A program made the translations under genes and the position numbers. Positions 20,021-56,474 of a stretch of DNA of 64,000 nucleotides are shown here, in pieces; positions within the stretch are counted from its first letter, which is position 1, and every line of letters starts with the position of its first letter. The DNA is taken from positions 49,036 to 113,035 of the forward strand of contig JAJISE010000001.1 of NCBI GenBank assembly GCA_022848865.1, written 5' to 3'. The notes under the pieces are model-generated. The model was given only the letters and a program-made list of their open reading frames with translations. It did not search any database and was not told the origin of the DNA. Source of the DNA: Thermoplasmatota archaeon (GTDB lineage: Archaea > Thermoplasmatota > Thermoplasmata > RBG-16-68-12 > JAGMCJ01).

Positions 20021-21163
20021 ATGTCAGGCAATTCCACGGTTTGTGTGCACGCGGGGGAGAGGAAGGACGCGACTGGGTCTCTCGTCACGCCGATATACCA
20101 GACGTCCACGTTCTATTACCCCGAATGGCAGAAGGAATACGTCTACACGAGGCTGTCCAACCCCACGATAGAGGCCGCGGAGAGCAAGCTCGCCGCGCTC
20201 GAGGGCGGGGACGGATGTCTCGTCTTTTCATCGGGCATGGCGGCCATAACCGCCACGCTTCTCTCCGTTCTCGAAAAGGGAGACCACCTCGTCTCGATCC
20301 CGGACCTGTATGGAGGGACCCGTGTCCTCTTGGACAAGGAGCTTCCCCGCCACGGGATCGGGGTGAGCCTTGTGGATTGCGAGGATTCTTCCGCCATTGA
20401 AAACGCTCTCACACAGGAGACGAGGGCCATCCTAATCGAGACTCCGACGAATCCGCTACTGAGAGTCCTCGACATGAAGAAGATCGCCGAGGTGGCTCAT
20501 CGGAACTCTGCCATACTTGTTGTGGATAACACCTTCGCCACGCCGATCAATCAGAGACCCCTGGAACTGGGCGCCGATGTTGTCGTTCACAGCGCATCCA
20601 AGTACCTCAATGGACACAGTGACGTCGTCGCGGGATTCGCCGTGTCCTCGGAGGAATGGATCGAGAGCATCGAGCAGAGACGGAGGCTCTTCGGCGGGTC
20701 AACCGATCCGCTTGCCGCCTTCCTCATTGCGAGAGGGATGAAGACCTTGGACCTCAGGATGAGGGTCCACAATGAGAACGGGATGGCCGTGGCGGACGCC
20801 CTGGAAGACATGAAACAAGTCGGAAAGGTCCACTATCCTGGCCTCAGGTCATTCGGGCAACATGCGCTGGCAAAGAGACAGATGGCGGGCTTTGGCGGGA
20901 TGGTCAGCTTTGAGGTGGGGCGGGCAGCGAAAGACGCAAGGCAGGTTTCCAGGAGGTTCGATCTGGTAAAACTGGCCTCGAGCTTGGGAGGAGTGGAGAG
21001 CCTCGCATCCCTTCCACTGGAAACCTCACACAAGTACATCAGCGCGAAGGAGAGAAGGGAATCCGGAATCCCTGACAACCTGATCCGCCTGTCGATCGGT
21101 ATCGAGAACTCCGAGGACATAATCGAGGATCTTGAGCGGGCGATTTCTGGCGGCAACCGCTAG
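20021..21163 (+). CDS. Cys/Met-metabolism PLP-dependent enzyme (cystathionine gamma-synthase/beta-lyase/methionine gamma-lyase family).
   Basis: The PLP-lysine region VVHSASKYLNGHSDVVAG is present. The length is 380 aa and the fold is type I. Confidence 0.85.
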   Translation: MSGNSTVCVHAGERKDATGSLVTPIYQTSTFYYPEWQKEYVYTRLSNPTIEAAESKLAALEGGDGCLVFSSGMAAITATLLSVLEKGDHLVSIPDLYGGTRVLLDKELPRHGIGVSLVDCEDSSAIENALTQETRAILIETPTNPLLRVLDMKKIAEVAHRNSAILVVDNTFATPINQRPLELGADVVVHSASKYLNGHSDVVAGFAVSSEEWIESIEQRRRLFGGSTDPLAAFLIARGMKTLDLRMRVHNENGMAVADALEDMKQVGKVHYPGLRSFGQHALAKRQMAGFGGMVSFEVGRAAKDARQVSRRFDLVKLASSLGGVESLASLPLETSHKYISAKERRESGIPDNLIRLSIGIENSEDIIEDLERAISGGNR

Positions 21164-22332
21164 TCCGTCCAGCCCTCGGGGACCATCGGGGAGATTGCCC
21201 TGAGTTCCTTCACTATCTGCGGGAGCGTCTCGATCACGTAGTCGATGTCATCCCCCTTCGTCCATCTGCCCAGAGTGAACGCAATCGACCCGTGCGCGTG
21301 TTCTGGCGGAATTCCCATCGCGGTGAGTACATGTGACGGCTCGAGCGTCTCGGACGTGCACGCGGAGCCCGTTGCGGCCTGGATTCCTTTCATGTCCAGG
21401 TTCAGAACGATTGATTCCCCTTCTATGTAGCTGAGCCGGAGGTTCGCGTTGTTCGGAAGCCTCTTCTCGAGCCTGCCATTTAGGTGGCACTCCTTCACGG
21501 TCGAGGTCAGGCCCTTGACCAGCTGGTCTCTCATCTTGCTCAACCTTTCTGATTCGACGCCCATCTCCTGCGCCGCGATCTCGGCGGCCCTTCCCATGCC
21601 CACGATGAGCGGGACGCTCTCGGTTCCTGGACGGAGCTTCCTCTCTTGACGCCCACCATGGAGGAGGGGCACGATCGACGTTCCCTTTCTCACGTACAGA
21701 GCCGCGACGCCCTTTGGGCCATACAGGTCCTGTGACGATAACGATAGCAGGTCGATATTGTCCTTGGTCACGTCTATCGGTATCTTCCCCGCTGCAGCGA
21801 CCGCATCTGTGTGGAACGGAATCCCCTTCTCCCTTGCGATGTCCCCGATCTCTCTGACCGGCTGGATGGCGCCGACCTCGTTGTTCGCGGACATCACCGA
21901 GATGAGTATCGTCTTGCCCGTTATCGCATCCCTTACCTTGTCTGCATCCACGATTGCGCTGTCATCAACGGGCAGACGAGAGACCGAGAATCCGACCCTC
22001 TCGAGCTCATCGACCGCTGAGAGGGCAGCGGGGTGCTCGATGCTTGAGGTGACCACATGACCCCCTTCGCTCTTCCTCTTCTGGGCCATGCCCTTGAGCG
22101 CTAGGTTGATCGACTCTGTGCCAGTGGAGGTGAATATGATCTCCCTCGCTTCCGCCCCGATGAGGTTCGCCACCCTCTCACGGGCCTCCTCGACCGCCGA
22201 GTTCGCTTCGAAACCCAGTGAATAGACGCTCGAAGGGTTGCCGTATTTCTCAGTGAAGTAAGGCAGCATCTCCTCCATCACGCGAGGATCGACGGGAGAC
22301 GCGGCAGCATAATCCAGATAGACTCGCCTCAT
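21160..22332 (-). CDS. IscS/NifS-like class V aminotransferase-fold protein in which the PLP-binding Lys is replaced (SSQD in place of SGHK). The catalytic-loop Cys is retained.
   Basis: It aligns along its full length with E. coli IscS (HTDAVAAAGKIPID, LYGPKGVAALYVRKG, ATGSACTSETLEPSHVL). At the Schiff-base position, HK is replaced by QD. Confidence 0.8.
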   Translation of the reverse strand: MRRVYLDYAAASPVDPRVMEEMLPYFTEKYGNPSSVYSLGFEANSAVEEARERVANLIGAEAREIIFTSTGTESINLALKGMAQKRKSEGGHVVTSSIEHPAALSAVDELERVGFSVSRLPVDDSAIVDADKVRDAITGKTILISVMSANNEVGAIQPVREIGDIAREKGIPFHTDAVAAAGKIPIDVTKDNIDLLSLSSQDLYGPKGVAALYVRKGTSIVPLLHGGRQERKLRPGTESVPLIVGMGRAAEIAAQEMGVESERLSKMRDQLVKGLTSTVKECHLNGRLEKRLPNNANLRLSYIEGESIVLNLDMKGIQAATGSACTSETLEPSHVLTAMGIPPEHAHGSIAFTLGRWTKGDDIDYVIETLPQIVKELRAISPMVPEGWTD

Positions 22333-22376
22333 TCAACACCTCCGCCAAGGTTCAGGAACGACCGCTGGCATATTTA

Positions 22377-23285
22377 TCACTTGGGAAAGCTCTTTCCCAG
22401 AATCCTTGCCGTGTGATAGCCAGCGTCCATGATCATGATCACGTCCTCATCAGAAACACTGCTCAGAATCCTCTCGCGAGCACGCGTGAGCTTCTCGAGG
22501 TTCTCGTGCTCGGATTCGAAGAAGGTCGTGAGACATTCGGAGACGAACTCGGGAATGCCCGTGAGGGTCTCGTGGCCATTCTTCCCGCTCAGGTCGATGA
22601 GCGCCTCCAGGCCAGTGAGCATGTTAAGAGCTACCCCATGGAGGAGGAAGCCCAAGCCCGCATGAAAGCCGTTGTCGGTCTCGATGATGAAGGATGTTGC
22701 CAGCCGTCCAGCCTCGACGCAGTGCGCCCTGACCTCGTTCTCCAGCCTCGCCAGACCCTCCTTCCCACGGGAGAGCATTTCGGTGAGCTCTGCCAGCTTC
22801 TCCCCCGCCTGTCTGAGATTGTGAGCGGCGGAGCGGTACGTGTCGCCGTGTTCCAGCGATTGGGCGAAGTCCAGAACCTCCCATCCCTTGAGCCGTCCTT
22901 CTGACTCCCTGCCTTCCATTGGCGGTTCGAGCTGACACCCGCACACATCATCCAGGCAGTCATCGCACGCACCAGAGAGACAATGGACCATCGCATGCTC
23001 GCAATCGCACTTCACGGACCCCCACATAACGCGCGCGAGCGCTCTGAGGATCCGTCGAGCGTCCGCCTCATCCTCTGCTCTGCGCACGATTATCTTCCCG
23101 CCTTGAAAGGCGTGAATGCGTCTGCCGCCGGATTCCCCGTAGGCATAGCCCATCTCATCTGAGCACCTGAAGCGGTCGAAGAACTCGATGGTACGCATCA
23201 GATAGCACATCTGTTTCGGGTCGATGTACTCGCCGAATGTGCATCCTGATATCTTGCTCAGGTCGAATCTAGCTTCGAGAGTCAC
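22377..23285 (-). CDS. Hypothetical protein with a dense Cys cluster (CDCEHAMVHCLSGACDDCLDDVCGC). It lies 44 bp upstream of, and in the same orientation as, the IscS-like gene.
   Basis: The ORF is 302 aa with 8 Cys in 26 residues. I recognise no family. Confidence 0.5.
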   Translation of the reverse strand: MTLEARFDLSKISGCTFGEYIDPKQMCYLMRTIEFFDRFRCSDEMGYAYGESGGRRIHAFQGGKIIVRRAEDEADARRILRALARVMWGSVKCDCEHAMVHCLSGACDDCLDDVCGCQLEPPMEGRESEGRLKGWEVLDFAQSLEHGDTYRSAAHNLRQAGEKLAELTEMLSRGKEGLARLENEVRAHCVEAGRLATSFIIETDNGFHAGLGFLLHGVALNMLTGLEALIDLSGKNGHETLTGIPEFVSECLTTFFESEHENLEKLTRARERILSSVSDEDVIMIMDAGYHTARILGKSFPK

Positions 23286-23528
23286 GAATCCGTCTTCGGT
23301 GCAGGGGTTGATTTCGACTATGTCCTCGGGCGTTCCTCTCCCTCGACCGAGCGATTGCCCGGTCGTTATATAAGGGCATTCATGGAGGGGGCAAGGACAG
23401 TGAGAGGCTCAGCAGGCGACTCAAGGAGATACATATTAAATCGGCGTGTTCCATCTGCATCGTGGTTCCCCGAACGAAGGGATGATGCGAATCGATGGGT
23501 CAGTCGCCCACGTGATGGAGAGGAATCT

Positions 23529-24305
23529 GTGGACTTGGAACTGGAGACAATCGTTCTCATAATCATACTGGCGTTCGTATTCCAGTACACGGATGCCTCT
23601 CTCGGCATGGGCTACGGGACCAGCCTCACTCCGCTCCTGTTGGTCATTGGCTTCGGCCTGTTCGAGATAGTCCCCGCTCTCCTGCTCAGCCAATTCATAA
23701 CTGGGATGGTGGGGGGGCTGTTCCATCACTACTTCGGGAACGTGGACCTTAGCGTCGGTTCAAGAGATTTGAGGATTACAGGCGTCCTCACCTTGTTCAG
23801 CATCATCGGTGTGGCAATCTCAGTGGTCGCCTTCGTCAGCGTTCCCGAGGTGTACATCCAGCTCTACATCGGAATCCTTGTTCTCTGTATCGGCGCCGTC
23901 ATTCTCCTCACATTCGAGAGGACGTTCGTCCTGACCATGAAGAAAATCATGGGGCTCGGCCTTTTCGCGGCTTTCAACAAGGGTCTGAGCGGCGGTGGCT
24001 ACGGTCCGATCGCGACCGGTGGGCAGATCCTGTCGGGTGTGCACAGCAAAAGCGCGATTGGCATAGCCTCCGTGGCGGAGGGGCTGACCTCTGCTGTCGG
24101 GGCGGTTCTCTTCTTCTTCTTTGTACCTACTGCACAATGGGGACTGGTACCATGGCTCCTTCTTGGTGGATTGGTCTCCGTACCCGCAGCCGCATTCACT
24201 GTGAAGAAGATCCACGCAAGGAATCTGAGGGTCATGGTTGGCATTGCCATCTGCGCCCTGGGAATCGTGACGCTCGTAAAGGTGGCATTTGGATGGGTAG
24301 GGTGA
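23529..24305 (+). CDS. TauE/SafE (DUF81) family membrane exporter.
   Basis: Polytopic protein with the family Gly-rich motifs (GMGYGTSLTPLL, FNKGLSGGGYGPI). The start is GTG at 23529 after GGAGAGGA. The first roughly 58 codons of the track ORF, from 23355, look non-protein-like. Confidence 0.6.
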   Translation: MDLELETIVLIIILAFVFQYTDASLGMGYGTSLTPLLLVIGFGLFEIVPALLLSQFITGMVGGLFHHYFGNVDLSVGSRDLRITGVLTLFSIIGVAISVVAFVSVPEVYIQLYIGILVLCIGAVILLTFERTFVLTMKKIMGLGLFAAFNKGLSGGGYGPIATGGQILSGVHSKSAIGIASVAEGLTSAVGAVLFFFFVPTAQWGLVPWLLLGGLVSVPAAAFTVKKIHARNLRVMVGIAICALGIVTLVKVAFGWVG

Positions 24306-24309
24306 AGAA

Positions 24310-25137
24310 ATGACAGGTGATATCGAGAGAATGTTGGTGGCTGTTGACGAGAACATAGAAGGGAACATCGCGCTCCATTATGGGATCAACCTCGCACGCG
24401 TCCTAGGGGCGAAGGTCGAGGTCATCCATGTTGTGGAGGACGCCCTTGTCTACGCGGGCTGGGGCGCCATAGTCACCAAGACCAAGAAAGAGGTCGACAG
24501 ACAATTGCATAGAATGGACACGGAGATCTCGAAGTACCGAGAGAAATGGAAGATGGACATCGGTGTCAAGATCTGTGAGGGGACGTCCGCCTCGGCAGAG
24601 ATACTCAGAGAACTCCACGAGGAGGAGTTCGACCTCCTCGTTGTCGGCTCCCACGGCGCTTCGGCGGTGATGGAGTTCCTGCTCGGAGGCATCTCATCGC
24701 AGATAGTCCATCATACGAAGAAGCCCATCGTCGTCGTCAAGAAGATGAGAGATGTCGCCAACATTCTAATGTGCACGGCAGGGTCGAAATGCTCGTTCAG
24801 GGCCATCAGGTACGCGGCGAGCATAGCGAAGGCGGCAGGAGCGGAAGTGACCGTACTCTCCATCTCGCCGTGGAAGTCGAGCGAAGCCGTGAATCAAGCC
24901 TGGGAGTTCGCGCATGCGGGTGTCGAGATACTCAAGGAACACGGGGTGACCGCTGGAGAAACGGTCAGAATCGGCAAGCCCGCCGAAGAGATACTGGCCG
25001 AGGCGAGGAAGCAGGACTTCGATCTGATCGTGATGGGCTACCGGGGGACGTCGGCGGTTGCAGACATGCTTCTAGGAGAGGTGGCCTCCAAGGTGATGCA
25101 TCACTCGCTCAGGCCCACGCTGATTTTCCGGAAGTGA
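24310..25137 (+). CDS. Universal stress protein with tandem UspA domains.
   Basis: There are two USP ATP-binding signatures (VGSHGASAVMEFLLGGISSQIVHHTKKPIVVV and MGYRGTSAVADMLLGEVASKVMHHSLRPTLIF). Confidence 0.85.
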   Translation: MTGDIERMLVAVDENIEGNIALHYGINLARVLGAKVEVIHVVEDALVYAGWGAIVTKTKKEVDRQLHRMDTEISKYREKWKMDIGVKICEGTSASAEILRELHEEEFDLLVVGSHGASAVMEFLLGGISSQIVHHTKKPIVVVKKMRDVANILMCTAGSKCSFRAIRYAASIAKAAGAEVTVLSISPWKSSEAVNQAWEFAHAGVEILKEHGVTAGETVRIGKPAEEILAEARKQDFDLIVMGYRGTSAVADMLLGEVASKVMHHSLRPTLIFRK

Positions 25138-25145
25138 TCGCCACA

Positions 25146-27518
25146 TCAGATGCTAACAGTGAATGTGATGATAGTGGAGCCACCATCATCGTCGGTCACG
25201 GTGAGAGTGACTACATACGTGCCTCCGCCCGGGAATGAGTGAGTCGCGACATCATCTACTGAGATCGGATTCACGTCCGGGGACGGATATGGGTCAGGAC
25301 CAATTCCGTTGTTGAAGTAGGTTCGCGCCTCTGTGCTGTTGTCGCCCCAGTCCCACATGAAGGTGAGGTCATCGCTTCCTGGGTCATACGCGGATGCGTG
25401 GAACGTGAGGTTGTGACCCCCGAAGTACTCGTTCAGCCTCTCTATCTCCCATGTCCAAGTCCCGTTGTGCCTGACGTTGAACGTGTGATGTATCCTCGTG
25501 TCGTTACCGTCATCGAAGTCCAGGATTACCCAGGCGGGAGTGGAGCCCCATATCTGTCCGTTTATGGGATCGTCCATGGGCTTGTATAGTGCGAGGACGG
25601 AGTACTCGCTGGATAGGGATATGTTGAGACCGGACAAGGTGACGGCCTGATCGTCCGGACTACCTGGATAACGCACAATCTGCGCGTATGCGACCTCGGT
25701 TCCGTCCTCGTAGAGGAAGAACTCGACGTCGTGCCACTTCTCCCCTGCGATCCGGAAGGTGATTCCGGTAAGGATGCGCAGGTCGAGGTAGCCCAGCACA
25801 GACGGGGCGACGTTCGCTATCGTCACATCCGCCAACGCCTCCACCTCATACGTGCCATCAGTTACCCTCAATCTCACTGTCCCAGTGTAGTCATCGCCGA
25901 ATACATGGCTGTATGTCGGGCTGCTCGAGTAGTTGGTCTCGAAAACCCCATCGTCATCGATGTCCCACATGTATTGCAGGGGATCTCCGTCTAAATCATA
26001 CGAGCCGCTAGCGTCGAATGCCACCGTATCGCCCTCGTCCGCAAGGTAGGGACCTCCTGCATGCGGATCAGGCGGTTGATTTATCCTTATCTCATCGCCG
26101 GCTGAGTCCTGAACAGCCCATTCTATTCTAGAAGACGCCGTAAGTGAGATCGCATCGGTGGTTCCCGGCGGACCCCCAGGAACGTCCACGGCGACTAGGA
26201 CGTAGTAGGTTCCGTTTGTGTCCAAATCTGGTGTTATGTCGACCTCGGGCTCACCTGCGTCGTAGACGCCATTTGCGTTGGAATCTTCATATATCCCAGC
26301 AAACCATCCGAGAGTAGATTCACCAGTGAGGTCGTAGGCCTGAGTGACCCCCCTGTTAGTAACTGTGTGCGAGTAATGGTAGGTTGCGCCTCCAGGCACG
26401 TCTTCGTCGTGGTCTGGCTCTACCTCAGGTGGAGGATTCACAGGAAGTGGAGGCGTTGAACCGCATACGAAGACCTCGTATGTCGTTTCCAGGAAATTGG
26501 CGTTGTGAGCATCCATCCCTTTGACCTCATACTTCCAGAGGCCAGGAGACAAAGAGTAGTTGACAGTGTAGTCATCGTCAGCGAGATCTCCTATGCTGAA
26601 AATCTCCCATTCCTGGTTGCCGGAGGGGTTGGAGTTCAAGTAAGTGTTACCGTCTGGATCTGTGACAACAACGTGAATGTTCGGACTGATTCGATACTTT
26701 GAATCTGGATTGTCGTCCTTAGGCTCCCCCCAATTCTGCCCTTCATCATAAGGGGGAGTGTTGGGAGTGTTGGGATCGTCGGTATCGTAAATGTGGTCAG
26801 CGTCACCGTCGAGGAAGAAAACTCTGGATTTCGCTATTGGAACGTAAAAGTTGTAGCACCATTCGCCGTCGTAGGTGTTGTCCGGTGTTCCAAAATTCGG
26901 ATCGATACCAGCCTGAGGACCCCCAGCAAATCCGAACTCGTGACCAGCTGCAAGGCTAATCTGACCGGTCGTCCTGACCTTGAAGTCGTTCAGCCCAATT
27001 GAAGGGGTCCCGCCTTCCCACTCAGCAACGAACCTGTAGAAGTAGTTCCCGCTGGGAGCCTGAGCGTCGGGAGAGACCGAGAAAGACTCGGTGAACCAAT
27101 CATCATCTGGCAGAACACCGCTACTGCTACTCCAACTCTCGACGAATAAGGCGGTCGTTCCATTCTTCAACGGGTCCATGTAAAGGGTGAAGGTTGTTGG
27201 CAAGTCACCAACATAATCCCAATGTTGCCCAACATCGCCGTCGAATATACCCACCTCGAACGTCGACTCGTTCGCGGGAACGCCTATATAGGCCACGACC
27301 TTTGACTCTATTGTTTTATGTCCGGCTGACGCTATCAAGACAAACTTCCCATCGTTAGGATCGACTGATGGAATGCCTTCGTAGCTGCCCGACTGGATGA
27401 TGATTCCATCATCCGCGCTATCATCGGCGATGTTTCCCACACAAGCAAGCAGACTCCCTGTCAGTAACAAAGCCCCTATTGCTGTAACGAAGATCTTCTC
27501 ATACAAAGGAATACGCAC
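25146..27518 (-). CDS. Surface lipoprotein candidate with PKD-like domains. It is a paralog of the 5'-truncated gene at 1..1740.
   Basis: The signal peptide has a lipobox-like LLAC. PKD-like motifs are present. The C-terminal roughly 250 aa share IAGEKWHDVEFFLYE, HHTFNV, YDPGSDDLTFMWDWGD and GTYVVTLTVTDDDGG with the other paralog. Confidence 0.75.
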   Translation of the reverse strand: MRIPLYEKIFVTAIGALLLTGSLLACVGNIADDSADDGIIIQSGSYEGIPSVDPNDGKFVLIASAGHKTIESKVVAYIGVPANESTFEVGIFDGDVGQHWDYVGDLPTTFTLYMDPLKNGTTALFVESWSSSSGVLPDDDWFTESFSVSPDAQAPSGNYFYRFVAEWEGGTPSIGLNDFKVRTTGQISLAAGHEFGFAGGPQAGIDPNFGTPDNTYDGEWCYNFYVPIAKSRVFFLDGDADHIYDTDDPNTPNTPPYDEGQNWGEPKDDNPDSKYRISPNIHVVVTDPDGNTYLNSNPSGNQEWEIFSIGDLADDDYTVNYSLSPGLWKYEVKGMDAHNANFLETTYEVFVCGSTPPLPVNPPPEVEPDHDEDVPGGATYHYSHTVTNRGVTQAYDLTGESTLGWFAGIYEDSNANGVYDAGEPEVDITPDLDTNGTYYVLVAVDVPGGPPGTTDAISLTASSRIEWAVQDSAGDEIRINQPPDPHAGGPYLADEGDTVAFDASGSYDLDGDPLQYMWDIDDDGVFETNYSSSPTYSHVFGDDYTGTVRLRVTDGTYEVEALADVTIANVAPSVLGYLDLRILTGITFRIAGEKWHDVEFFLYEDGTEVAYAQIVRYPGSPDDQAVTLSGLNISLSSEYSVLALYKPMDDPINGQIWGSTPAWVILDFDDGNDTRIHHTFNVRHNGTWTWEIERLNEYFGGHNLTFHASAYDPGSDDLTFMWDWGDNSTEARTYFNNGIGPDPYPSPDVNPISVDDVATHSFPGGGTYVVTLTVTDDDGGSTIITFTVSI

Positions 27519-39671: not shown

Positions 39672-42600
39672 ATGTCACTCTATAGGAAGCGTTTCTCCAG
39701 AGACAATAATGGCGTGGCCGAGGTCGTTGGAACGATATTGATATTGCTCATCACAGTGGTCATCTTCTCGACCATATTCATATGGGTGTACTCTATCCCA
39801 ACGCCAGAGGCTTCAACGAAGCTCCAGATGGAAGGAGCACTGGACCCGATTTATGATACTGGTGTGTGGGACGGGGCGATAATAAACATCACCCACCAGG
39901 GCGGGGAGAATCTGTATGGCTGGAGAACGCAGGTTTACATTCGAGTGAACAATGAGTTCGAGATACTTGAGACCCAGGGAACGATCTCGTACGGACCCAA
40001 CTCTGGGGACCCATACGGACTGAGAGAGGATGGTGACTGGTTCATCGGCGAGGTCTGGAGCATTCTGAACCACACGATTCAGCCTGATGACAGGGTCGAG
40101 GTCGGTGTGGTCGAATCCATAAAGGGCGAGGTGATCTGGAGCTCTTTGCTCTTGGGAGCCGCGGGCGAGCATCCCCCGCTCTTCGTCCAGAAGTGGTATG
40201 ACGGCAATCTGGATACGATTGCGAGGGAGGATCTGAGAGGGAACGAGTCGTTCGCGATCTACGTCCAGATAGTGGACAATGACGGGGATTTCGATTCGGG
40301 CAACCCTGTTTACGCCAACGTGACCGTGCTCTACGCTGACTACGGCGCCTTCAAGATGTACGACAACGGCTCCATGGGAGATGCTCTGGCAGATGATGGC
40401 ATCTGGACTGCGAACTATACGGCGTTCGAAGCGGACGAATCCATGGACGGCTCGCTGGTGATTATCACGGCCGAGGATGATGCTGGTCACAACACGACCG
40501 CCAGGCTAATCCTCAAGCTTCGAGAGACGACGACGATCTACATCCCAACGCCACCGCCGGATTACAATATCACCACACCGAGGTTTGGCCCTGAACTGCT
40601 TCCTGGAAGCGGCCTCCAGCACTATCAGATATTCAACGAGACAGAGTGGGATAAGTTGAGATGGGTAGGCAACGCGTCACGGACGTTCGTGAAGGGTGAG
40701 AGGATCGTCATAGTCATCGCCAGCCATTTCCTTCCTGACACGAATCTGGACAACAAGTTTTGGCTGTTCAAGGCAGAGTCTGGTCTTGGACCACAGCCCG
40801 TAGTCTATGGCGGGGGATCGCTGGGTCCGAATTCTATTCCGTCCTCAACAGAGGCGTTCGAACTCGTTGACTACGTGGGCAAGTTCTACGTCTGGGAGTG
40901 CAGGTGGAACACCTCGAGCGAGGGTCACGGCTTCAGCGACGGACTGCTGGATTACGGCCACTACTCTCTAAGGATAAAACTGAGATCCAGCTACTATCCT
41001 CCACCCGACAATCTCTTCGAGGTCATGGACTTCATCACGGTCACAGATGAGGACGGCAATTTCCCGGACTATCCGATGGTCCAGACCTTCCTTGATGCCA
41101 ACCACGAGCAACCCTCTGATACGTTCAACTACACAGACATTATGTACGTCAAGGTTGTCGTCCAGGATACTGACGGCTCGTTCGAGTTCGGGAACGTCAA
41201 GATACAGGACTTCGGGGCTGGTATCCAAATCTGGGCCAAGCCAGGCAATCCTCCCGTTAGTGCCGCCTCGGTGAACAACTCCGTGAGTTATAAGTTCAAC
41301 ATAGACCTGACCAAGCCGAATTTCGATCCATGGCTCTTCGGAGAGAATGCCTACACGTTGAGGGTTCTGTATCTCAAGGACATCAATGAGGAATACAAGG
41401 TCTCGCTCAGTCGTCTTGTGACGATCAGGGGACCCCGATGGTACTTGGACATTGCCCATTCAATCGAGGGTTACGACCACCCGACCCATGACGACAGGGT
41501 TTACGCTGTGTTCCTCGAGAACCTTGTCTTCAGATGGGAAGATTACTGGATTGAGTCCTACAACGGTCCTCCAAACCAGAGGGACCCACCGTGGGGAGGC
41601 GGTGCTTTCCTCTCCATCGTCTTCGGAGACCTCGATGATGATACCGACTTGGATGTTGTCACGGGTCTCGAAGTGGGCAGATTGTTCATGTACAGGAACC
41701 AAGGCGGGAATGGTCACTTCTGGCAACAAAGAGAAGTCGACAACCTGGGGATGCCAGTCACAGCTGTCGATGTCGGCCATGTCGACAAGGACGGTCTCCT
41801 CGATATCGTCGCTGGAACAGAGGACGGTCATATCTGGTGGTATGCGAGCGACAACCAATGGACGCCGACACTCATCGTGGATACGGGTTTGGAGATTCAC
41901 GAGTTGGTGATGGCAGACATGGATGATGACGATGACGATGACTTGGTCGTCGCGACTGGGAACGATCTTCGTGTCTATGAGAACAGCGATGGCGTCTTCG
42001 GGACGATCACGACACTGGAATACTTCGCAGAGGCGGACATTGGAGGCAATGGAACCGTCGTGCCATCACCACTTGGCTTCGAGAAAACCAAAATGTCCGA
42101 TGACGACTATGAGTCCATAACTGAAGTAAGCGGAATCGCGTATAACGTCAGCACATACACTGCACAGGGAGAGGTCGATGCCCAGTACGAAGACCCAAAG
42201 AGCGGGGACTACACCAACACAAAGACCGAGGATGGGTCCTACGAGGTCCTCAGAGAGAAGAATTCATACCCACTCAAACTCAATGGGAAGTATCGTTACC
42301 TCATTCGCAATTGGACTGGCAATCTAGCAACGCATGGGCACGCCTTCCTGTTTGGAGATGTGCCGAATGGGGATCTCATTAAGCTCTACATCAACAGCTA
42401 CATAAGCAACGGAACAACCAACGAGCCATTCAATATGGGCTGGTCCAACGATTGGACAGCGAACCCGACTTACATCTCAGATATCTCAAGGACGACAATA
42501 GGGACAGATGAATTCAATCTGAAGGCTGCAGGGTTCACTGGCGGACCGCTCATCATCTGGATATGGGATGATGATCACAGCGAGAAAGACATCACTTCCC

Positions 42601-43526
42601 TTGATGAGGCACTGAGTTGGCTATCCATCGACTACATGGGTGTGAAGGTCTTTACGGCAAACGGAACGACGAGCACTCTGGACCACATCTGGAGAACCGA
42701 TTCCATCCAGGCCAATGGGCACGCATACAAGTTCTTCTTAGAGGCCTATCACGATGACAACGCTGAGAATGACCACTTCACGTTCCAGTACTCCCAGAAC
42801 CAAGGAGGTCCCTGGACGGACATGGTGACCATAGTACGCACATCGGATCCTAACGACTATACTGGGGCCACGCTTCCCACAACGGTCGCAGGAAACGCAT
42901 ACATAAAAGTTATCGACACCGACGGCACGAACGGTAGACTCAACAACGACACTGTGTATGTGGACCATATGTTCATCAGGAGATACTATGTCTCGACAAC
43001 CCCACTCTACTCCATCGACCTCGGTAGCACCGTGAATAGTATCGCCGTCGGTGATGTGGACGGTGATGGTGATAATGACGTTGCTGCGGCGACTTCCAGT
43101 GGGAACATCTATGTGAGGTACAATGATGGCCTGGGTGACCTGGGTTTGGTGGACGTGCTTGCGGCAACTGGCTCAGTTCTACAAGTGGATCTTGCCTATA
43201 TTGATGGCGACGACGCCCTCGATGTCGTCGCGGGAACGGACGACAACAAAGTCTACTGGTTCGAGAATGCCCTTCCACAAACCTCATGGGATAGGGAAAA
43301 GATTGCGGACACCGATGGTGACGTCACGGCCCTGAGGGCCGGAGATGTCAATGGTGATTACTGGGACGATATCGTGATAGGAACAGATACAGGGAAGATC
43401 GTCTGGTACAAGAATGAGCGTCCTGGCTGGAAGACAGAGATCGTGGATAGCCGCAATTCACCCATCTACGATCTGGACATCGGCGACGTTGACCGAGGAG
43501 TGACGATCGAGCTAGAGAGGGACTAG
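39672..43526 (+). CDS. Giant (1284 aa) surface protein. It has an archaeal type IV pilin-like (class III) N-terminal signal/anchor and multiple FG-GAP/VCBS-like beta-propeller repeats.
   Basis: The N-terminus RDNNGVAEVVGTILILLITVVIFSTIF matches the archaeal pilin N-terminal domain consensus. Repeated D-x-D-x-DG-x-x-D-hydrophobic-hydrophobic-x-G blocks are present (DLDDDTDLDVVTG, DKDGLLDIVAGTEDGHIWWY, DDDDDDDLVVATG, DVDGDGDNDVAAATSSGNIYV, DGDDALDVVAGTDDNKVYWF, NGDYWDDIVIGTDTGKIVWY). Confidence 0.75.
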   Translation: MSLYRKRFSRDNNGVAEVVGTILILLITVVIFSTIFIWVYSIPTPEASTKLQMEGALDPIYDTGVWDGAIINITHQGGENLYGWRTQVYIRVNNEFEILETQGTISYGPNSGDPYGLREDGDWFIGEVWSILNHTIQPDDRVEVGVVESIKGEVIWSSLLLGAAGEHPPLFVQKWYDGNLDTIAREDLRGNESFAIYVQIVDNDGDFDSGNPVYANVTVLYADYGAFKMYDNGSMGDALADDGIWTANYTAFEADESMDGSLVIITAEDDAGHNTTARLILKLRETTTIYIPTPPPDYNITTPRFGPELLPGSGLQHYQIFNETEWDKLRWVGNASRTFVKGERIVIVIASHFLPDTNLDNKFWLFKAESGLGPQPVVYGGGSLGPNSIPSSTEAFELVDYVGKFYVWECRWNTSSEGHGFSDGLLDYGHYSLRIKLRSSYYPPPDNLFEVMDFITVTDEDGNFPDYPMVQTFLDANHEQPSDTFNYTDIMYVKVVVQDTDGSFEFGNVKIQDFGAGIQIWAKPGNPPVSAASVNNSVSYKFNIDLTKPNFDPWLFGENAYTLRVLYLKDINEEYKVSLSRLVTIRGPRWYLDIAHSIEGYDHPTHDDRVYAVFLENLVFRWEDYWIESYNGPPNQRDPPWGGGAFLSIVFGDLDDDTDLDVVTGLEVGRLFMYRNQGGNGHFWQQREVDNLGMPVTAVDVGHVDKDGLLDIVAGTEDGHIWWYASDNQWTPTLIVDTGLEIHELVMADMDDDDDDDLVVATGNDLRVYENSDGVFGTITTLEYFAEADIGGNGTVVPSPLGFEKTKMSDDDYESITEVSGIAYNVSTYTAQGEVDAQYEDPKSGDYTNTKTEDGSYEVLREKNSYPLKLNGKYRYLIRNWTGNLATHGHAFLFGDVPNGDLIKLYINSYISNGTTNEPFNMGWSNDWTANPTYISDISRTTIGTDEFNLKAAGFTGGPLIIWIWDDDHSEKDITSLDEALSWLSIDYMGVKVFTANGTTSTLDHIWRTDSIQANGHAYKFFLEAYHDDNAENDHFTFQYSQNQGGPWTDMVTIVRTSDPNDYTGATLPTTVAGNAYIKVIDTDGTNGRLNNDTVYVDHMFIRRYYVSTTPLYSIDLGSTVNSIAVGDVDGDGDNDVAAATSSGNIYVRYNDGLGDLGLVDVLAATGSVLQVDLAYIDGDDALDVVAGTDDNKVYWFENALPQTSWDREKIADTDGDVTALRAGDVNGDYWDDIVIGTDTGKIVWYKNERPGWKTEIVDSRNSPIYDLDIGDVDRGVTIELERD

Positions 43527-44135
43527 TCGCTCCAGGTGCTTGAGGACGCCATCCGCCCTTTCCACCTCAATCAGGGAAAGGACCCTTGACCATTTGCCCG
43601 CCATCTTCGACAGTCTCAGAGCGATATATCGCTCCCTTTCCTGTTCAAGCCGCTCAAAACCATTATGCCTGTTGACGTACGCGTCGAACTCCAGCACGAA
43701 GTCCCCCGGTGACTGGGCCTTGAACTTCTTCCCAACGAGTGCGCGAGAATCCCTGGTCTGCTTCATCACGTCGACGACGGAGACAAAATTGCAGTACGCC
43801 TCGGTGTACAGGTGTTCATTCATGTCCACGGCCATGCACGGGACCCGCAGGCGTCTCGCAACCGCGATACACTCGGAGTAGCAGGGTGGGGGCTTCCTCA
43901 CGTCTCCGAACTTCTGCAATCCCTTCATGTAGGCCTCCTCGTGAGCGCTTGACGGCTCTGCCTCTTGATTCCCCAGGGTGCCCAGCGTCCTGAGCTCCTC
44001 CTTTGAGATGCAGATGCCCAGTGCGTCCGGTTTGGTCTCTTCAATCGCCCGCTCGACCTCCTCCGCCTCGCTGACGAGGCCCCTGATCACGGGTAACACG
44101 AAAATCCTGGAGCCGCCCCTCCCAATGGAATCCAT
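43512..44135 (-). CDS. TraB/GumN-family protein (tentative).
   Basis: The N-terminal block SRIFVLPVIRGLVSEAEEVERAIEETKPDALGICISKEEL resembles the TraB-family GTAHVS...PD-V-VEL region. Confidence 0.4.
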   Translation of the reverse strand: MDSIGRGGSRIFVLPVIRGLVSEAEEVERAIEETKPDALGICISKEELRTLGTLGNQEAEPSSAHEEAYMKGLQKFGDVRKPPPCYSECIAVARRLRVPCMAVDMNEHLYTEAYCNFVSVVDVMKQTRDSRALVGKKFKAQSPGDFVLEFDAYVNRHNGFERLEQERERYIALRLSKMAGKWSRVLSLIEVERADGVLKHLERLVPL

Positions 44136-44139
44136 CGAA

Positions 44140-45081
44140 TCACTTCTTCCTTTCCAAAATCAGGTCCAGCATCCCTTCCCTGTCCTTGACCTTCTTGAGC
44201 TCCTTCTCGAGGATGATCGGCGTCCCTTCTATGTTCCGCTTCACAGTGAGCTGCCTGACGAAAATCACAGAGTCCTTCTCGACAACGCTGGAGATGTTCG
44301 CTACAATCTTCGCCTTGGTCGAGAGATCCGATTGTCTCCTTTCCAGACCCGTGAGCAGAATCACCTTCCTGTCCCTTGTCACGGCATCGAACGGGCATCT
44401 GATGGTCGGCACGATGCTGTACCCAAGCATGGACAGATGACCGAAGACATCCCTCTCGAACTGGTCGAGCTGATTCCACGACGTCATGATCTCATCGGCA
44501 TCCGGTTTCAGGTGGAAGGGGTCCACGGCCTGGACGATAGGCTCCCCCAGGAACTCCTCGAGCCTCAAGGCGACATCTACGGTGGCGCCCATCCCGTCCT
44601 CGTACATCTGGATCGTCCGCCTGGACACGCCCGCGATCTCCGCCAGTGCTCCCAAGGAGATGCTCTTCTTCTCCCTTGCACGGCGTATGATCGTCCCGTC
44701 GAGCTTCACGTACAGGCCGCCCGGTGCGGAGAACATGAACGGTGGCACGCCCTCGACGAAGATGTCCGTGAAGGTTCCAAGAGAAAGGATCGGGATCCCG
44801 AACCGGGAGTATATCGCCCCGTCCTCCAGTTTTCCAGCCCCGCTCTTCCCCGCCAGTATGAGAGGCGTCCCCTCGAGGCAAGATGCAATCATCTTCAGCT
44901 CCTGCGAGCGCTTCCTGCCCAGCGAATCGATGTTCAGAAGCACTTTCGTGACCAGCAGCGTGTCGTCCCGCCTGGCGACGAAATCGAAACTAATCCTCCT
45001 TGTGTCCAGTCTCTGGGACAGATAGAATCCAGTCTTCGCTAGGATTTCCCGAGATGTATCGATTATCTGCTGGCGGTTCAC
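44140..45081 (-). CDS. Putative HTH-type transcriptional regulator (archaeal approximately 315-aa family with a central cro/C1-type HTH).
   Basis: The central XRE HTH is SLGALAEIAGVSRRTIQMYEDG. The size and architecture match the archaeal putative HTH-type regulator family. Confidence 0.6.
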   Translation of the reverse strand: MNRQQIIDTSREILAKTGFYLSQRLDTRRISFDFVARRDDTLLVTKVLLNIDSLGRKRSQELKMIASCLEGTPLILAGKSGAGKLEDGAIYSRFGIPILSLGTFTDIFVEGVPPFMFSAPGGLYVKLDGTIIRRAREKKSISLGALAEIAGVSRRTIQMYEDGMGATVDVALRLEEFLGEPIVQAVDPFHLKPDADEIMTSWNQLDQFERDVFGHLSMLGYSIVPTIRCPFDAVTRDRKVILLTGLERRQSDLSTKAKIVANISSVVEKDSVIFVRQLTVKRNIEGTPIILEKELKKVKDREGMLDLILERKK

Positions 45082-50214: not shown

Positions 50215-50367
50215 ATTCGATGAGCCAGATGGTGAGGTTCAAAACCTTACATTGTCAGAAACTTGACAGAAGCCCCGCAGGGAAGCGCCGCGAAAATGGG
50301 GGTAGCGAGAACGGAGCGCCACCGATTTTGAGGGTAGAGGCGAAGCCGAGCACCGCGAGTTTCGAGG

Positions 50368-51438: not shown

Positions 51439-51679
51439 AGAAATCGGATAGCTCCCTTTCTATCCTTTTCCAAACAGGAATACTACAGTCAATTGTCACG
51501 TGCACGGTGTTCTCACGGACTTCATAAGTCCCTGATAGAAGACCAGTTGGATGAGAGAAATTCCCCCTCCGAGCGTTGCCAGACAGTGACCATCCATTCT
51601 CTTCGGCTCGCTGGTTCACGATTCTGAATAGGTCTTCTGGAGTGTATTTCAAGTCAATATCGTATGTTCTTCTCGCCAT
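51431..51679 (-). CDS. Hypothetical 82-aa protein that overlaps the start of the AlbA_2 gene by 8 nt (same operon).
   Basis: Compact ORF with ATG/stop overlap coupling. I recognise no family. Confidence 0.35.
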   Translation of the reverse strand: MARRTYDIDLKYTPEDLFRIVNQRAEENGWSLSGNARRGNFSHPTGLLSGTYEVRENTVHVTIDCSIPVWKRIERELSDFFG

Positions 51680-54656: not shown

Positions 54657-54689
54657 GTTCCAGTGGAAATGACGGGGACGGTGTCTTAG

Positions 54690-56247: not shown

Positions 56248-56474
56248 AGAGGCAGTGGACTATTAACCTTTGGTGAGTGAGTCAATGTCCGACAGCTGCC
56301 ATCCAGTATTCCGAGGAATATCCTAACTAACGGGAAGGGACCCCGTCCGACTTCTGTCAGCCAGCATTTCGAAGGAGTGTATCACTTAACGGCACGGAAT
56401 CTCTGAACCGAAACCAGCAAGTATGTCTAGTAGGTTAGGAAGGTCGATTCCTGCGAAAGGAAGGAGTGTAGACC

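What the first reader, a model, noticed from the sequence alone, without database searches (positions are those of the whole stretch)
21160..23285. IscS homolog lacking the PLP Schiff-base lysine, co-oriented with a Cys-cluster protein
The 390-aa protein aligns along its whole length with IscS/NifS, including the catalytic-loop cysteine (ATGSACTS). At the invariant SGHK, where Lys forms the internal aldimine with PLP, it reads SSQD. An IscS with Asp at this position is known from Archaeoglobus fulgidus. There it does not bind PLP, lacks desulfurase activity and functions with IscU as a scaffold component. No IscU is adjacent here. Instead, 44 bp upstream and co-oriented, there is a 302-aa protein with 8 Cys in 26 residues (CDCEHAMVHCLSGACDDCLDDVCGC). 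It is a plausible alternative metal/Fe-S-binding partner. A Cys/Met PLP lyase gene sits convergently next to the pair.
Basis: partly seen in the sequence, partly recalled or inferred. Interest (0 to 1): 0.55.

Follow-up and report, generated by a model that had tools for sequence, protein, structure and literature searches.

The report
Lysine-less IscS with conserved Cys-rich partner
An archaeal (Thermoplasmatota) gene pair encodes an IscS-type protein that has lost the lysine needed for cysteine desulfurase chemistry and, directly upstream, an uncharacterised cysteine-rich protein whose relatives sit beside IscS, SufS or IscU genes in many archaea, which makes it a candidate undescribed component of archaeal iron-sulfur cluster assembly.

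Summary
ORF 21160-22332(-) is a full-length class-V aminotransferase/IscS homologue. Its best solved relative is Archaeoglobus fulgidus IscS (E 1.7e-120, 49% identity). It has Asp202 (GAC) where the PLP Schiff-base Lys should be, and it keeps the catalytic-loop Cys325. This is not an error. Of its 120 closest database homologues, 94 carry D or E there, and dN/dS is 0.06-0.14. The IscS part is therefore a new member of a known kind, although public records name it 'cysteine desulfurase NifS'.

The less ordinary part is the upstream protein, here called X (22377-23285(-)). It has 7 Cys in 25 residues, not 8 in 26. It matches no Pfam or NCBIfam family and has no significant solved-structure relative. 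X belongs to a family of about 150 sequence clusters. Most members carry an extra N-terminal [4Fe-4S] domain of the CFeSP/RnfB type. In 31 of 46 X loci examined, a cysteine-desulfurase homologue or IscU lies within 1.2 kb. Every type-I IscS I could score next to X lacks the lysine. X-IscS(D)-IscU operons occur in a Hodarchaeota MAG and in one metagenome contig of unknown taxon. X looks like an added partner, not a proven replacement for IscU. No IscU lies in the 64 kb window. The function of X is inferred from gene context only.

The parts
21160..22332 (-). IscS/NifS-type class-V aminotransferase-fold protein (390 aa) lacking the PLP Schiff-base lysine. It has Asp202 (GAC, 21727-21729) and keeps the catalytic-loop Cys325 (21358-21360).
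   Evidence: Pfam PF00266 E 6e-75 over the full length. Best PDB hit is A. fulgidus IscS 4eb5, E 1.7e-120, with D aligned to D199 and 49% identity. The score against NCBIfam TIGR03402 is 531.7, just over the cut-off of 530.75. dN/dS is 0.06-0.14 against relatives.
22333..22376 (-). 44-bp spacer between X and IscS, with a GGAGGTG Shine-Dalgarno-like motif (22337-22343) 4 nt before the IscS ATG. This is consistent with co-transcription.
   Evidence: Sequence read directly. The spacing of 43-61 bp is conserved in the loci that keep X-IscS adjacency in the two Thermoplasmata-type clades. Co-transcription itself is an inference.
22377..23285 (-). Protein X as listed (302 aa), an uncharacterised Cys-rich protein. 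It has an N-terminal alpha/beta domain with a TBP-like fold, a Cys cluster, and a C-terminal helical bundle that is weakly PhoU-like.
   Evidence: No Pfam or NCBIfam family. No meaningful PDB sequence hit. AlphaFold2 model has pLDDT 85.9 and pTM 0.88. Foldseek of the whole model finds nothing with E<0.1. The N-terminal domain model resembles a single TBP repeat (prob 0.99, TMq about 0.45, E about 0.03). A profile search finds 147 representative clusters. dN/dS is 0.08-0.20.
22935..23009 (-). Cysteine cluster C93-x-C95-x6-C102-x4-C107-x2-C110-x4-C115-x-C117 (7 Cys in 25 residues).
   Evidence: Counted. C93, C95, C102, C107 and C110 are at least 90% conserved across 40 diverse family members, as are C27, C41 and the upstream 'PC' cysteine.
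23286..23342 (-). Conserved in-frame N-terminal extension of X (GRGTPEDIVEINPCTEDGF) carrying the family-wide Pro-Cys motif. It contains no ATG, GTG or TTG. An invariant ATA lies at 23319-23321 and an invariant ACG at 23331-23333.
   Evidence: Translation. The peptide is conserved with synonymous third-position changes in 9 related loci. The GTG at 23285 is replaced by GTA in L010 and GTC in L011, and stop codons lie just upstream in L001, L008, L009 and L010.
23365..23383 (-). Invariant ATGAATGCCCTTATATAAC element, with the TATA-box-like TTATATAA at 23366-23373, about 48 nt upstream of the ATA codon. Probable archaeal promoter of the X-IscS unit.
   Evidence: Nucleotide alignment of 9 loci. 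The promoter assignment is an inference from the archaeal TATA consensus.
20021..21163 (+). Convergent PLP enzyme of the Cys/Met metabolism family. It is closest to methionine and cystathionine gamma-lyases and keeps its own Schiff-base Lys194.
   Evidence: PF01053 E 2e-136. Best PDB hits are methionine gamma-lyases and cystathionine gamma-lyases, E 1e-104 to 1e-85. The SASKY motif was located. Convergent adjacency to IscS(D/E) is kept in both Thermoplasmata-type clades, and also in L028 where X lies elsewhere.
23355..25137 (+). Divergent neighbours: a TauE/SafE-family membrane protein (23355-24305; the true start is probably later) and a tandem universal stress protein (24310-25137).
   Evidence: Pfam PF01925 E 1.3e-19 and PF00582 E 2.5e-48. 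These are conserved only in the close clade. Listed as context, not as demonstrated parts of the system.

Best explanation
The pair is a variant of the archaeal minimal IscS/IscU-type (MIS/ISC-like) iron-sulfur assembly module.

The IscS homologue cannot form the internal PLP aldimine because Asp202 replaces the lysine. By analogy with A. fulgidus IscS, it should have no cysteine desulfurase activity. It would act as a structural or scaffold subunit, and its retained loop cysteine (Cys325) could ligate a nascent cluster or accept sulfur.

It is probably co-transcribed with protein X. X is a conserved metalloprotein candidate with 8-9 family-conserved cysteines, a TBP-like-fold domain and a PhoU-like helical bundle. 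Most relatives also carry a CFeSP/RnfB-type [4Fe-4S] domain. X most likely works with the IscS-like protein as an Fe-S-binding accessory, acting as a cluster or sulfur carrier, a co-scaffold or a redox partner.

Sulfur would have to come from free sulfide or from another enzyme. One candidate is the conserved convergent gamma-lyase-type PLP enzyme.

Shown here: the identities of the proteins, the substitution, its conservation, and the gene linkage. Inferred: loss of activity, metal binding by X, a physical partnership between X and IscS, and the sulfur source.
For: 1. Lys to Asp at the aligned Schiff-base position, with the catalytic loop retained. The closest solved relative is A. fulgidus IscS, which is reported inactive and to donate a Cys ligand to the [2Fe-2S] cluster on IscU.
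2. D or E at this position occurs in 94 of the 120 best homologues. These group apart from the Lys-type proteins. Purifying selection acts on both genes.
3. X lies directly upstream of an IscS homologue (16-154 bp) in 17 loci besides the window, from at least five divergent lineages. All IscS copies next to X that I could score read S[SA][QNP][DE]xYGP[KR]G.
4. Independent arrangements link X to Fe-S and sulfur genes:
   - X-IscS(D)-IscU in L003 and L020 (L020 also has SufC nearby).
   - ThiI-HTH-X-IscU-SufS in L019.
   - SufS upstream of and co-oriented with X in L029, L031 and L043.
   - SufS downstream of and convergent with X in L023, L030, L032 and L034 (L042 shows only a 52-residue fragment).
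   - IscU upstream of X in L047.
   - Overall, 31 of 46 X loci have a desulfurase homologue or IscU within 1.2 kb.
5. 15 of 28 diverse X members carry PF04060. The family profile hits the [4Fe-4S] domain of the CFeSP large subunit (E 6e-8) and RnfB.
6. Eight cysteines are at least 90% conserved across the family.
7. A 44-bp spacer with a strong SD motif precedes IscS.
Against: - There is no biochemical evidence for this protein or for any member of family X.
- The window protein lacks the recognisable [4Fe-4S] domain, so its cofactor is unknown. The cysteines could bind Zn.
- 15 of 46 X loci show no desulfurase or IscU in the available flanks. Several of these contigs are short, but L024, L025 and L038 have 3-6 kb on both sides.
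- Lys-less IscS also occurs without X (L026, L027). In one complete genome X and IscS(E) are far apart (L017 and L028).
- Much of the synteny comes from related Thermoplasmata lineages and may partly reflect inheritance.
- No IscU was found in the window, and I could not determine whether the genome has one.
- A. fulgidus IscS still holds PMP or PLP non-covalently, so some other PLP/PMP-dependent chemistry cannot be excluded.
Confidence: 0.6

Rival explanations
1. X is a regulator, not an assembly factor. It would be an Fe-S- or metal-sensing protein controlling the IscS locus, the archaeal positional analogue of IscR as first gene of iscRSUA. The TBP-like domain would contact DNA or a protein, and the PhoU-like bundle would act as a signalling module.
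For: X is the first gene of the unit, and a conserved promoter-like element lies just upstream. The N-terminal domain has a TBP-like fold, and one relative weakly hits Pfam TBP. Two relatives reach the Pfam PhoU cut-off in the C-terminal region, and Foldseek's best whole-model hit is PhoU. PhoU proteins are regulators (general knowledge).
Against: The TBP-like fold is a single repeat with non-significant E-values (0.02-0.1), and this fold occurs in many proteins that do not bind DNA. In L018-L020 a separate HTH gene already sits upstream of X. Orientation relative to the desulfurase gene varies (SufS upstream of X, or convergent with it), which fits a partner better than an operon repressor. 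The CFeSP/RnfB-type domain is typical of electron-transfer proteins.
Confidence: 0.15
2. The pair serves sulfur trafficking for products other than Fe-S clusters, such as thiamine, tRNA thiolation or homocysteine. X would be a persulfide or sulfide carrier, and the Lys-less IscS an adaptor. This would resemble the DsrE/TusA relays found next to Lys-less IscS in other archaea.
For: X neighbours include ThiI (L018, L019), Thi4 (L012-L017), HcyBio with MoaE/ThiS (L025) and NadA (L004). In L027 and in the Methanosarcina acetivorans isc1 cluster, DsrE and TusA/SirA genes lie beside the Lys-less IscS, which is the position X occupies here. A gamma-lyase-type enzyme is a conserved neighbour.
Against: IscU, the dedicated Fe-S scaffold, is the most specific recurring neighbour after the desulfurases (L003, L019, L020, L047). 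SufC lies next to the L020 cluster. ThiI, NadA and HcyBio-associated proteins are themselves Fe-S-dependent or sulfur enzymes, so these contexts do not separate the two models.
Confidence: 0.15
3. The adjacency has no functional meaning. X is an unrelated Cys-rich (possibly Zn) protein that happens to lie beside a decaying or neofunctionalised IscS paralogue, and the synteny reflects shared ancestry.
For: Most loci with the exact arrangement seen in the window come from two related Thermoplasmata-type clades that also share downstream genes (MGMT, DsbD-like), which indicates general synteny conservation. X and IscS(E) are separated in L015 and in L017/L028 without obvious loss of either gene.
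Against: Linkage recurs in distant lineages (the Hodarchaeota and Heimdallarchaeota MAGs, and the metagenome contigs of unknown taxon). It recurs with different partner types (type-I D/E IscS, type-II SufS, IscU) and in different orientations. Both genes are under purifying selection. Decay or sequencing error is excluded by the conservation of D/E in 94 of 120 homologues.
Confidence: 0.08

Closest known systems
Archaeoglobus fulgidus IscS (IscS2; PDB 4eb5, 4hvk, D199K variant 4r5f), solved in complex with IscU
   Same: It is the best solved-structure match (E 1.7e-120, 49% identity over 380 residues). Asp sits at the Schiff-base Lys position. The preceding His is also replaced (N in A. fulgidus, Q here). 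The catalytic-loop Cys is retained. The literature reports no desulfurase activity and a Cys ligand donated to the [2Fe-2S] cluster on IscU.
   Different: The A. fulgidus protein was solved in complex with IscU. Here no IscU lies within 64 kb. The motif is SSQD, not SSND, and the protein falls in a separate Thermoplasmata-type subgroup. The upstream partner X has not been described for A. fulgidus, and I could not inspect that genome.
Methanosarcina acetivorans isc1 cluster (IscS1 MA0808, IscU1 MA0807, DsrE- and SirA/TusA-like genes) and the similar Bathyarchaeota locus L027
   Same: The IscS also lacks the lysine and is embedded in a cluster with extra small sulfur-handling genes next to it. 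The M. acetivorans isc2 cluster is linked to a Cys/Met-family PLP enzyme and NadA. This echoes the gamma-lyase neighbour here and the NadA gene in L004.
   Different: The accessory genes there are DsrE and TusA, not X, and IscU is present. Whether MA0806 (annotated 'conserved hypothetical') is related to X was not testable with these tools.
MIS (minimal iron-sulfur) system, MisS plus MisU, as summarised in the 2026 review PMC13066941
   Same: It is an archaeal two-gene IscS/IscU-like system without chaperones or carriers. The window protein belongs to this IscS/NifS-like group by sequence.
   Different: The review states that MIS has no additional components. Here a conserved third gene (X) accompanies the MisS-like gene, MisU is not adjacent, and the MisS-like protein lacks the catalytic lysine.
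N-terminal [4Fe-4S] domain of the corrinoid/iron-sulfur protein large subunit and of RnfB (Pfam PF04060)
   Same: Most X family members begin with this domain (15 of 28; profile hit to 4djd at E 6e-8 and to RnfB 8ahx at E 0.003).
   Different: The window protein and its two nearest clades lack this domain entirely. The conserved core of X (TBP-like domain, Cys cluster, helical bundle) has no counterpart in CFeSP or RnfB.
PhoU-domain proteins
   Same: The C-terminal helical bundle gives PhoU as the best Foldseek hit (1t8b, prob 0.85). Two relatives, P0019 and P0020, reach the Pfam PhoU cut-off.
   Different: The window protein has no Pfam PhoU hit. The Foldseek E-value is 0.1 and TM is about 0.26-0.35. 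The genomic context has nothing to do with phosphate.

Membership tests
Type-I cysteine desulfurase (IscS/NifS; PF00266, TIGR03402) | Full-length class-V aminotransferase fold with IscS/NifS-level sequence similarity | tested here: met
   PF00266 E 6e-75 covering residues 4-365. TIGR03402 scores 531.7 bits against a cut-off of 530.75. PDB IscS and NFS1 hits range from E 1e-120 to 1e-80.
Type-I cysteine desulfurase (IscS/NifS; PF00266, TIGR03402) | Schiff-base lysine in the S-x-H-K motif that forms the internal aldimine with PLP | tested here: not met
   The query reads SSQD (Asp202), aligned without gaps to SAHK of 9wep and to SSNK of the 4r5f D199K variant. The codon is GAC. The same D or E is present in all close orthologues.
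Type-I cysteine desulfurase (IscS/NifS; PF00266, TIGR03402) | Catalytic persulfide-forming cysteine in the flexible loop (SSGSACTS-like) | tested here: met
   ATGSACTS at residues 320-327, with Cys325.
Type-I cysteine desulfurase (IscS/NifS; PF00266, TIGR03402) | Other PLP-contacting residues (the His before the Lys, the Gln after the conserved Asp) | tested here: inconclusive
   The alignment to 9wep shows HTDAV kept (Asp present). However, Gln is replaced by Ala (davQslg versus davAaag) and His by Gln (saHk versus ssQd). The stacking His (IEHPA) is kept. Non-covalent cofactor binding therefore cannot be judged from sequence.
Type-I cysteine desulfurase (IscS/NifS; PF00266, TIGR03402) | L-cysteine desulfurase activity | not testable with these tools
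   This needs an enzyme assay. Loss of activity is inferred from the reported inactivity of the A. fulgidus protein.
A. fulgidus-type inactive IscS (scaffold-type IscS paralogue) | Acidic residue replacing the Schiff-base Lys, with the loop Cys retained | tested here: met
   The class is large: 88 D and 6 E among the 120 best homologues.
A. fulgidus-type inactive IscS (scaffold-type IscS paralogue) | A cognate IscU with which it forms an (IscS-IscU)2 complex (solved for the A. fulgidus protein); tested here as adjacency of an iscU gene | tested here: not met
   There is no IscU-like sequence in the 64 kb window (tblastn, best E 0.27) or in the flanks of the two Thermoplasmata-type clades. IscU is adjacent in L003, L020 and L027. 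Whether IscU is present elsewhere in this genome could not be determined.
MIS minimal Fe-S system (MisS + MisU) | Two-gene MisS-MisU unit without further dedicated components | tested here: not met
   MisU is absent from the locus, and an extra conserved gene (X) is present. The definition is taken from PMC13066941.
PF04060 'FeS' domain proteins (CFeSP large subunit / RnfB N-terminal [4Fe-4S] domain) | N-terminal C-x2-C-x4-C...C domain matching PF04060 | tested here: not met
   The window X has no Pfam hit. Its N-terminus begins at the PC motif that follows this domain in longer relatives. The domain is present in 15 of 28 relatives.
Protein family X (uncharacterised; defined here by the A2/A4 profiles) | Core of a TBP-like domain with PC, C27 and C41, then W-G-x-x-x-C-x-C-x6-C-x4-C-x2-C, then a helical bundle with a G-x3-N motif | tested here: met
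   The profile search finds 147 clusters (80 at E<=1e-10), with the window's cluster on top. Conserved columns are listed.
PhoU family | Match to Pfam PF01895 / TIGR02135 above the cut-off | tested here: not met
   The window protein gives no hit. Only P0019 and P0020 reach the cut-off, over about 70 C-terminal residues. Foldseek to PhoU has E 0.1.

The most novel reading that the evidence does not exclude
Protein X is a previously unrecognised core component of archaeal IscS/IscU-type (MIS) iron-sulfur biogenesis. It is found in Thermoplasmatota-type MAGs, in single Hodarchaeota and Heimdallarchaeota MAGs, and in other lineages. It would bind Fe-S clusters and work directly with Lys-less IscS, and with SufS/IscU elsewhere. 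It would supply the electron-transfer, sulfide-handling or co-scaffold function that lets these systems build clusters without cysteine desulfurase chemistry. In the short-form Thermoplasmata clades it may even substitute for an adjacent IscU.
Probability: 0.35. Interest if true: 0.75.

Novelty: new variant of a known kind. Interest (0 to 1): 0.55.

Why it matters
A. fulgidus IscS showed that some archaeal IscS proteins are catalytically dead. A review still lists as open how clusters are assembled on such IscS-IscU pairs without a desulfurase (PMC8918507). A 2026 review describes the archaeal MIS system as having no further components (PMC13066941).

This locus, and about 30 related ones, point to a concrete and testable candidate for a missing component. 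It is a conserved cysteine-rich protein family, usually carrying a [4Fe-4S] domain, that travels with Lys-less IscS, SufS and IscU genes.

The analysis also shows that the Lys-less form dominates among the closest archaeal IscS homologues (94 of 120). These proteins are being annotated automatically as 'cysteine desulfurase NifS'. That will mislead metabolic reconstructions of sulfur and Fe-S metabolism in uncultured archaea.

Tried and rejected
- Sequence search of X against the PDB gave only coiled-coil noise (NEMO, keratin).
- Foldseek of the whole X model against the PDB gave no hit with E<0.1. The domain-only model gave consistent but statistically weak TBP-like hits.
- The search for related loci with the 28-sequence alignment failed for lack of a conserved stretch. 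I replaced it with the 11-sequence alignment A3.
- Sequencing error or pseudogene is rejected. The GAC codon needs at least two changes from a Lys codon, D/E is conserved in orthologues, and dN/dS is 0.06-0.14.
- A shifted lysine is rejected. The alignment around the motif is gap-free, and the only nearby Lys is the universal GPKG lysine.
- A weak tblastn hit of IscS at window 43836-44446 (E 0.12) is treated as noise, given its E-value and an unrelated-looking 313-aa ORF on that strand; Pfam was not run there.
- A search for informative domain fusions of X found only the PF04060 domain and one PP-loop protein with a weak partial match.
- Literature searches for PF04060 and for MIS/MisS/MisU found no description of the X family. 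The original MIS paper (Nat Ecol Evol 2022) is not held.
- An attempt to find an IscU belonging to the window's lineage, by matching contig lengths among IscU homologues, failed. The one apparent match (L049/L050) is an unrelated low-GC archaeon with NadA-IscS(Lys)-IscU.
- A Biopython neighbour-joining tree timed out. I used average-linkage clustering instead, so the branching order of the Lys and D/E groups is only weakly resolved.
- Pfam scans of 10 further window ORFs found no SufB/C, IscU or other Fe-S assembly gene.

Full report
**What is in the sequence.** The ORF listing confirms three genes at the stated coordinates:
- A 390-aa ORF at 21160-22332(-).
- A 302-aa ORF at 22377-23285(-), 44 bp upstream and co-oriented.
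- A convergent 380-aa ORF at 20021-21163(+), whose 3' end overlaps the first by 4 bp.

The 44-bp spacer ends in GGAGGTG, 4 nt before the downstream ATG. This is consistent with an internal operon gene. The closest relatives of all three proteins are labelled Thermoplasmata or Thermoplasmatota archaeon. A genome contig 99% identical over the X protein match is JAJISH010000161.1, 'Thermoplasmatota archaeon bin211'.

**The IscS homologue.**
- It matches Pfam Aminotran_5 end to end (E 6e-75).
- Its best solved relative is A. fulgidus IscS (4eb5/4hvk; E 1.7e-120), with 49% identity over 380 residues.
- The HMMER alignments are gap-free around the active site. The query reads 'slssqDlygpkgv', wild-type A. 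fulgidus 'tissnDiygpkgv', its D199K variant 'tissnKiygpkgv', and a Lys-type enzyme (9wep) 'sfsahKmygpkgv'.
- Asp202 is GAC at 21727-21729. The persulfide-loop motif ATGSACTS (Cys325) is intact.
- The His preceding the Lys is Gln here, and the Gln following the conserved Asp is Ala.
- Every orthologue fetched reads S[SA][QNP][DE]xYGP[KR]G.
- Among the 120 best database homologues, 88 have D, 6 have E and 25 have K. In average-linkage clustering, the K group separates from the SQ[DE] group (Thermoplasmata-type) and the SND group (named members are Bathyarchaeia and 'Ca. Hecatella'; the A. fulgidus sequence has the same SND motif).
- dN/dS against four relatives is 0.06-0.14.

The substitution is therefore real, old and selectively maintained. 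According to the literature held here, A. fulgidus IscS has no desulfurase activity. It contains PMP when crystallised alone (PLP was modelled in the complex), and it supplies a Cys ligand to the [2Fe-2S] cluster on IscU. M. acetivorans IscS1 also lacks the lysine. The IscS half of the finding is thus a new member of a known kind. One practical point: the protein scores 531.7 bits against the NCBIfam NifS equivalog, whose cut-off is 530.75. Identical database entries are accordingly named 'cysteine desulfurase NifS'.

**The Cys-rich protein X.**
- The cluster CDCEHAMVHCLSGACDDCLDDVCGC holds 7 cysteines in 25 residues (residues 93-117).
- X has no Pfam or NCBIfam family and no meaningful PDB sequence match.
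- A word-indexed search found only 14 homologues. A profile search against 1.84 billion representatives found 147 clusters, 80 of them at E<=1e-10.
- Most members are 340-430 aa. 15 of 28 sampled carry an N-terminal PF04060 domain. The family profile aligns that domain to the [4Fe-4S] domain of the corrinoid/iron-sulfur protein large subunit (E 6e-8) and to RnfB.
- The window protein and its two nearest clades lack that domain.
- Family-wide conserved residues include a Pro-Cys just before the annotated start, then C27, C41, C93, C95, C102, C107 and C110.
- An AlphaFold2 model is confident (pLDDT 85.9, pTM 0.88). It shows an alpha/beta domain, the Cys-rich segment, and a helical bundle.
- Foldseek finds nothing significant for the whole model. 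The best hit is PhoU, at E 0.1.
- A separate model of the N-terminal 140 residues (pLDDT 85.2) consistently resembles one repeat of TBP (prob 0.99, TM about 0.45, rmsd about 3.3 A, E about 0.03).
- Two relatives reach the Pfam PhoU cut-off in their C-terminal helices.
- Source annotations for members are 'hypothetical protein', '(Fe-S)-binding protein' or 'phosphate uptake regulator'.
- I found no paper describing the family.

**Gene linkage.** I collected 46 X loci, counting the window.
- In the window's clade (L001, L002, L005-L011; X 71-99% identical), X is followed after 43-49 bp by IscS(D/E).
- In a second clade where X is only about 34% identical (L012-L016; Methanomassiliicoccales and Thermoplasmata MAGs), the same X-IscS(E) arrangement holds in four of the five loci. 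In L015 a 1599-aa ORF separates X from IscS. In the related closed genome CP070767.1, X (L017) and IscS(E) (L028) lie far apart.
- At 23-26% X identity, the arrangements are:
  - X-IscS(D)-IscU in L003 and in a Hodarchaeota MAG (L020). In L020 a SufC gene (TIGR01978 above cut-off) and an HTH gene lie upstream.
  - X-IscS(D) in a Heimdallarchaeota MAG (L021).
  - X followed by a fragmented IscS beside NadA (L004; its Lys position could not be scored).
  - ThiI-HTH-X-IscU-SufS in L019. The related L018 has the start of IscU before a masked stretch.
  - X-SufS in L022, and X convergent with SufS in L023.
- Metagenome contigs add SufS upstream of and co-oriented with X (L029, L031, L043), SufS downstream of and convergent with X (L030, L032, L034; L042 shows only a 52-residue match), and IscU upstream of X (L047).
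- The SufS-like neighbours inspected (L019, L022, L023) keep their lysine (FSIHK/FSGHK).
- Altogether, 31 of 46 loci have a desulfurase homologue or IscU within 1.2 kb of X.
- The exceptions include several short contigs, but also L024, L025 (next to HcyBio, MoaE and ThiS) and L038.
- Conversely, Lys-less IscS occurs without X. It is solitary in 'Ca. Hecatella' (L026). It sits in NadA-ferredoxin-DsrE-TusA-IscS(D)-IscU in a Bathyarchaeota genome (L027). The latter resembles the M. acetivorans isc1 cluster, which has DsrE- and SirA-like genes.

**Interpretation.** The linkage recurs across distant lineages, with three different partner genes and in several orientations. This argues for a functional connection between X and the IscS/SufS/IscU machinery, beyond inherited synteny. 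X accompanies IscU in several lineages, so it is better described as an additional component than as an IscU substitute. Replacement is still possible in the short-form Thermoplasmata clades, where neither the flanks nor the 64 kb window contain IscU. I could not establish whether the genome encodes IscU elsewhere. A search among IscU homologues for contigs of this lineage found none, and the one apparent match was an unrelated low-GC archaeon.

The most likely working model is as follows. The Lys-less IscS is a non-catalytic scaffold or adaptor, as proposed for A. fulgidus. X is a cysteine-ligated metal/Fe-S protein that acts with it as a carrier, co-scaffold or redox partner. The CFeSP/RnfB-type domain of the long forms points to electron transfer. 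Sulfur would come from sulfide. The convergent PLP enzyme is closest to methionine and cystathionine gamma-lyases and keeps its lysine. It remains next to IscS(E) even where X has moved away. That makes it a candidate sulfide source, but the point rests on context within related lineages only.

The rival models are a regulatory role for X (IscR-like), a role in non-Fe-S sulfur trafficking, and chance linkage. They are listed with their tests.

**Start of X.** In the window's clade, the peptide GRGTPEDIVEINPCTEDGF upstream of the annotated GTG is conserved, with synonymous third-position changes. The GTG itself is GTA in L010 and GTC in L011. Stops lie just upstream in four loci, and there is no ATG, GTG or TTG in between in most loci. 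An invariant ATA (23319-23321) and an invariant ACG (23331-23333) are the only conserved candidate start codons. An invariant TATA-like element (TTATATAA, 23366-23373) lies about 48 nt upstream of the ATA. The sister clade has a normal ATG at the equivalent place. The real protein is therefore probably at least 12 residues longer, and it includes one more conserved cysteine.

**Verdict.** The suggestion of a partnership with the Cys-rich protein is supported by comparative genomics, but it is untested biochemically, and 'alternative to IscU' is not established. I rate the finding as a new variant of a known kind, with interest 0.55. The IscS itself is ordinary for archaea. The X family is an undescribed, testable candidate component of archaeal Fe-S biogenesis.

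Noticed in passing
window 23286-23383 (minus strand): X appears to start at a non-canonical codon. A conserved coding extension (GRGTPEDIVEINPCTEDGF) has no ATG, GTG or TTG. An invariant ATA lies at 23319-23321 and an invariant ACG at 23331-23333. An invariant TATA-like element lies at 23366-23373. The annotated GTG is not conserved in L010 or L011.
   Followed up: partly
window 21160-22332 (protein P0169): The Lys-less protein scores 531.7 bits against NCBIfam TIGR03402, whose cut-off is 530.75. Identical database entries are therefore named 'cysteine desulfurase NifS'. This is probably a systematic functional mis-annotation for the whole D/E clade.
   Followed up: partly
L007:6001-8126 compared with window 21160-23285: The adjacent genes have diverged unequally. 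X is 93% identical to the window's X (dS 0.16), but the neighbouring IscS is only 82% identical (dS 0.72). This suggests recombination or replacement within the locus.
   Followed up: no
window 20021-21163 (+); also L028:6178-7329: A gamma-lyase-type Cys/Met PLP enzyme overlaps the IscS 3' end by 4 bp, convergently. It stays next to IscS(E), together with the MGMT-like and DsbD/thioredoxin-like genes, even in a genome where X is elsewhere. It may be a sulfide source for the inactive IscS.
   Followed up: partly
L018:5289-5714, L019:4656-5054, L020 (gene just upstream of X): A small HTH protein with a C-terminal Cys motif (CEICSKI...CNYH...CDVC) sits directly upstream of long-form X, preceded by a ThiI-like PP-loop gene in L018 and L019. 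It is a candidate dedicated regulator of these clusters.
   Followed up: no
L012-L017, upstream of X: In the sister clade, X is preceded by Thi4 (thiazole synthase family) and a DUF6775/DUF7001 'probable metallopeptidase' gene, co-oriented with X. This order is conserved in all six loci.
   Followed up: no
window about 50000-57000: GC content drops to 0.47-0.52 against about 0.56 elsewhere. The region holds an ORF (54690-55490) whose N-terminus looks like a DNA methyltransferase, plus several ORFs of unclear function. It may be an integrated element or a restriction-modification island.
   Followed up: no
window 25146-27518 (-) and 39672-43526 (+): Two very large secreted or surface-type proteins. 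The relatives of the first in L001 and L002 carry PKD domains. The second (1284 aa) was not scanned; its sequence looks rich in Asp/Gly repeats. The first is part of the conserved neighbourhood of the close clade.
   Followed up: no
L025:4142-4414: A 90-aa ORF directly downstream of X in L025 (sequence includes '...KPCSGRAGFEAI...VFPSGRMLLKT...') visually resembles the N-terminal TBP-like domain of X on its own. This may be a stand-alone paralogue of that domain. The profile search also returned many hits of 70-120 aa covering only this region.
   Followed up: no
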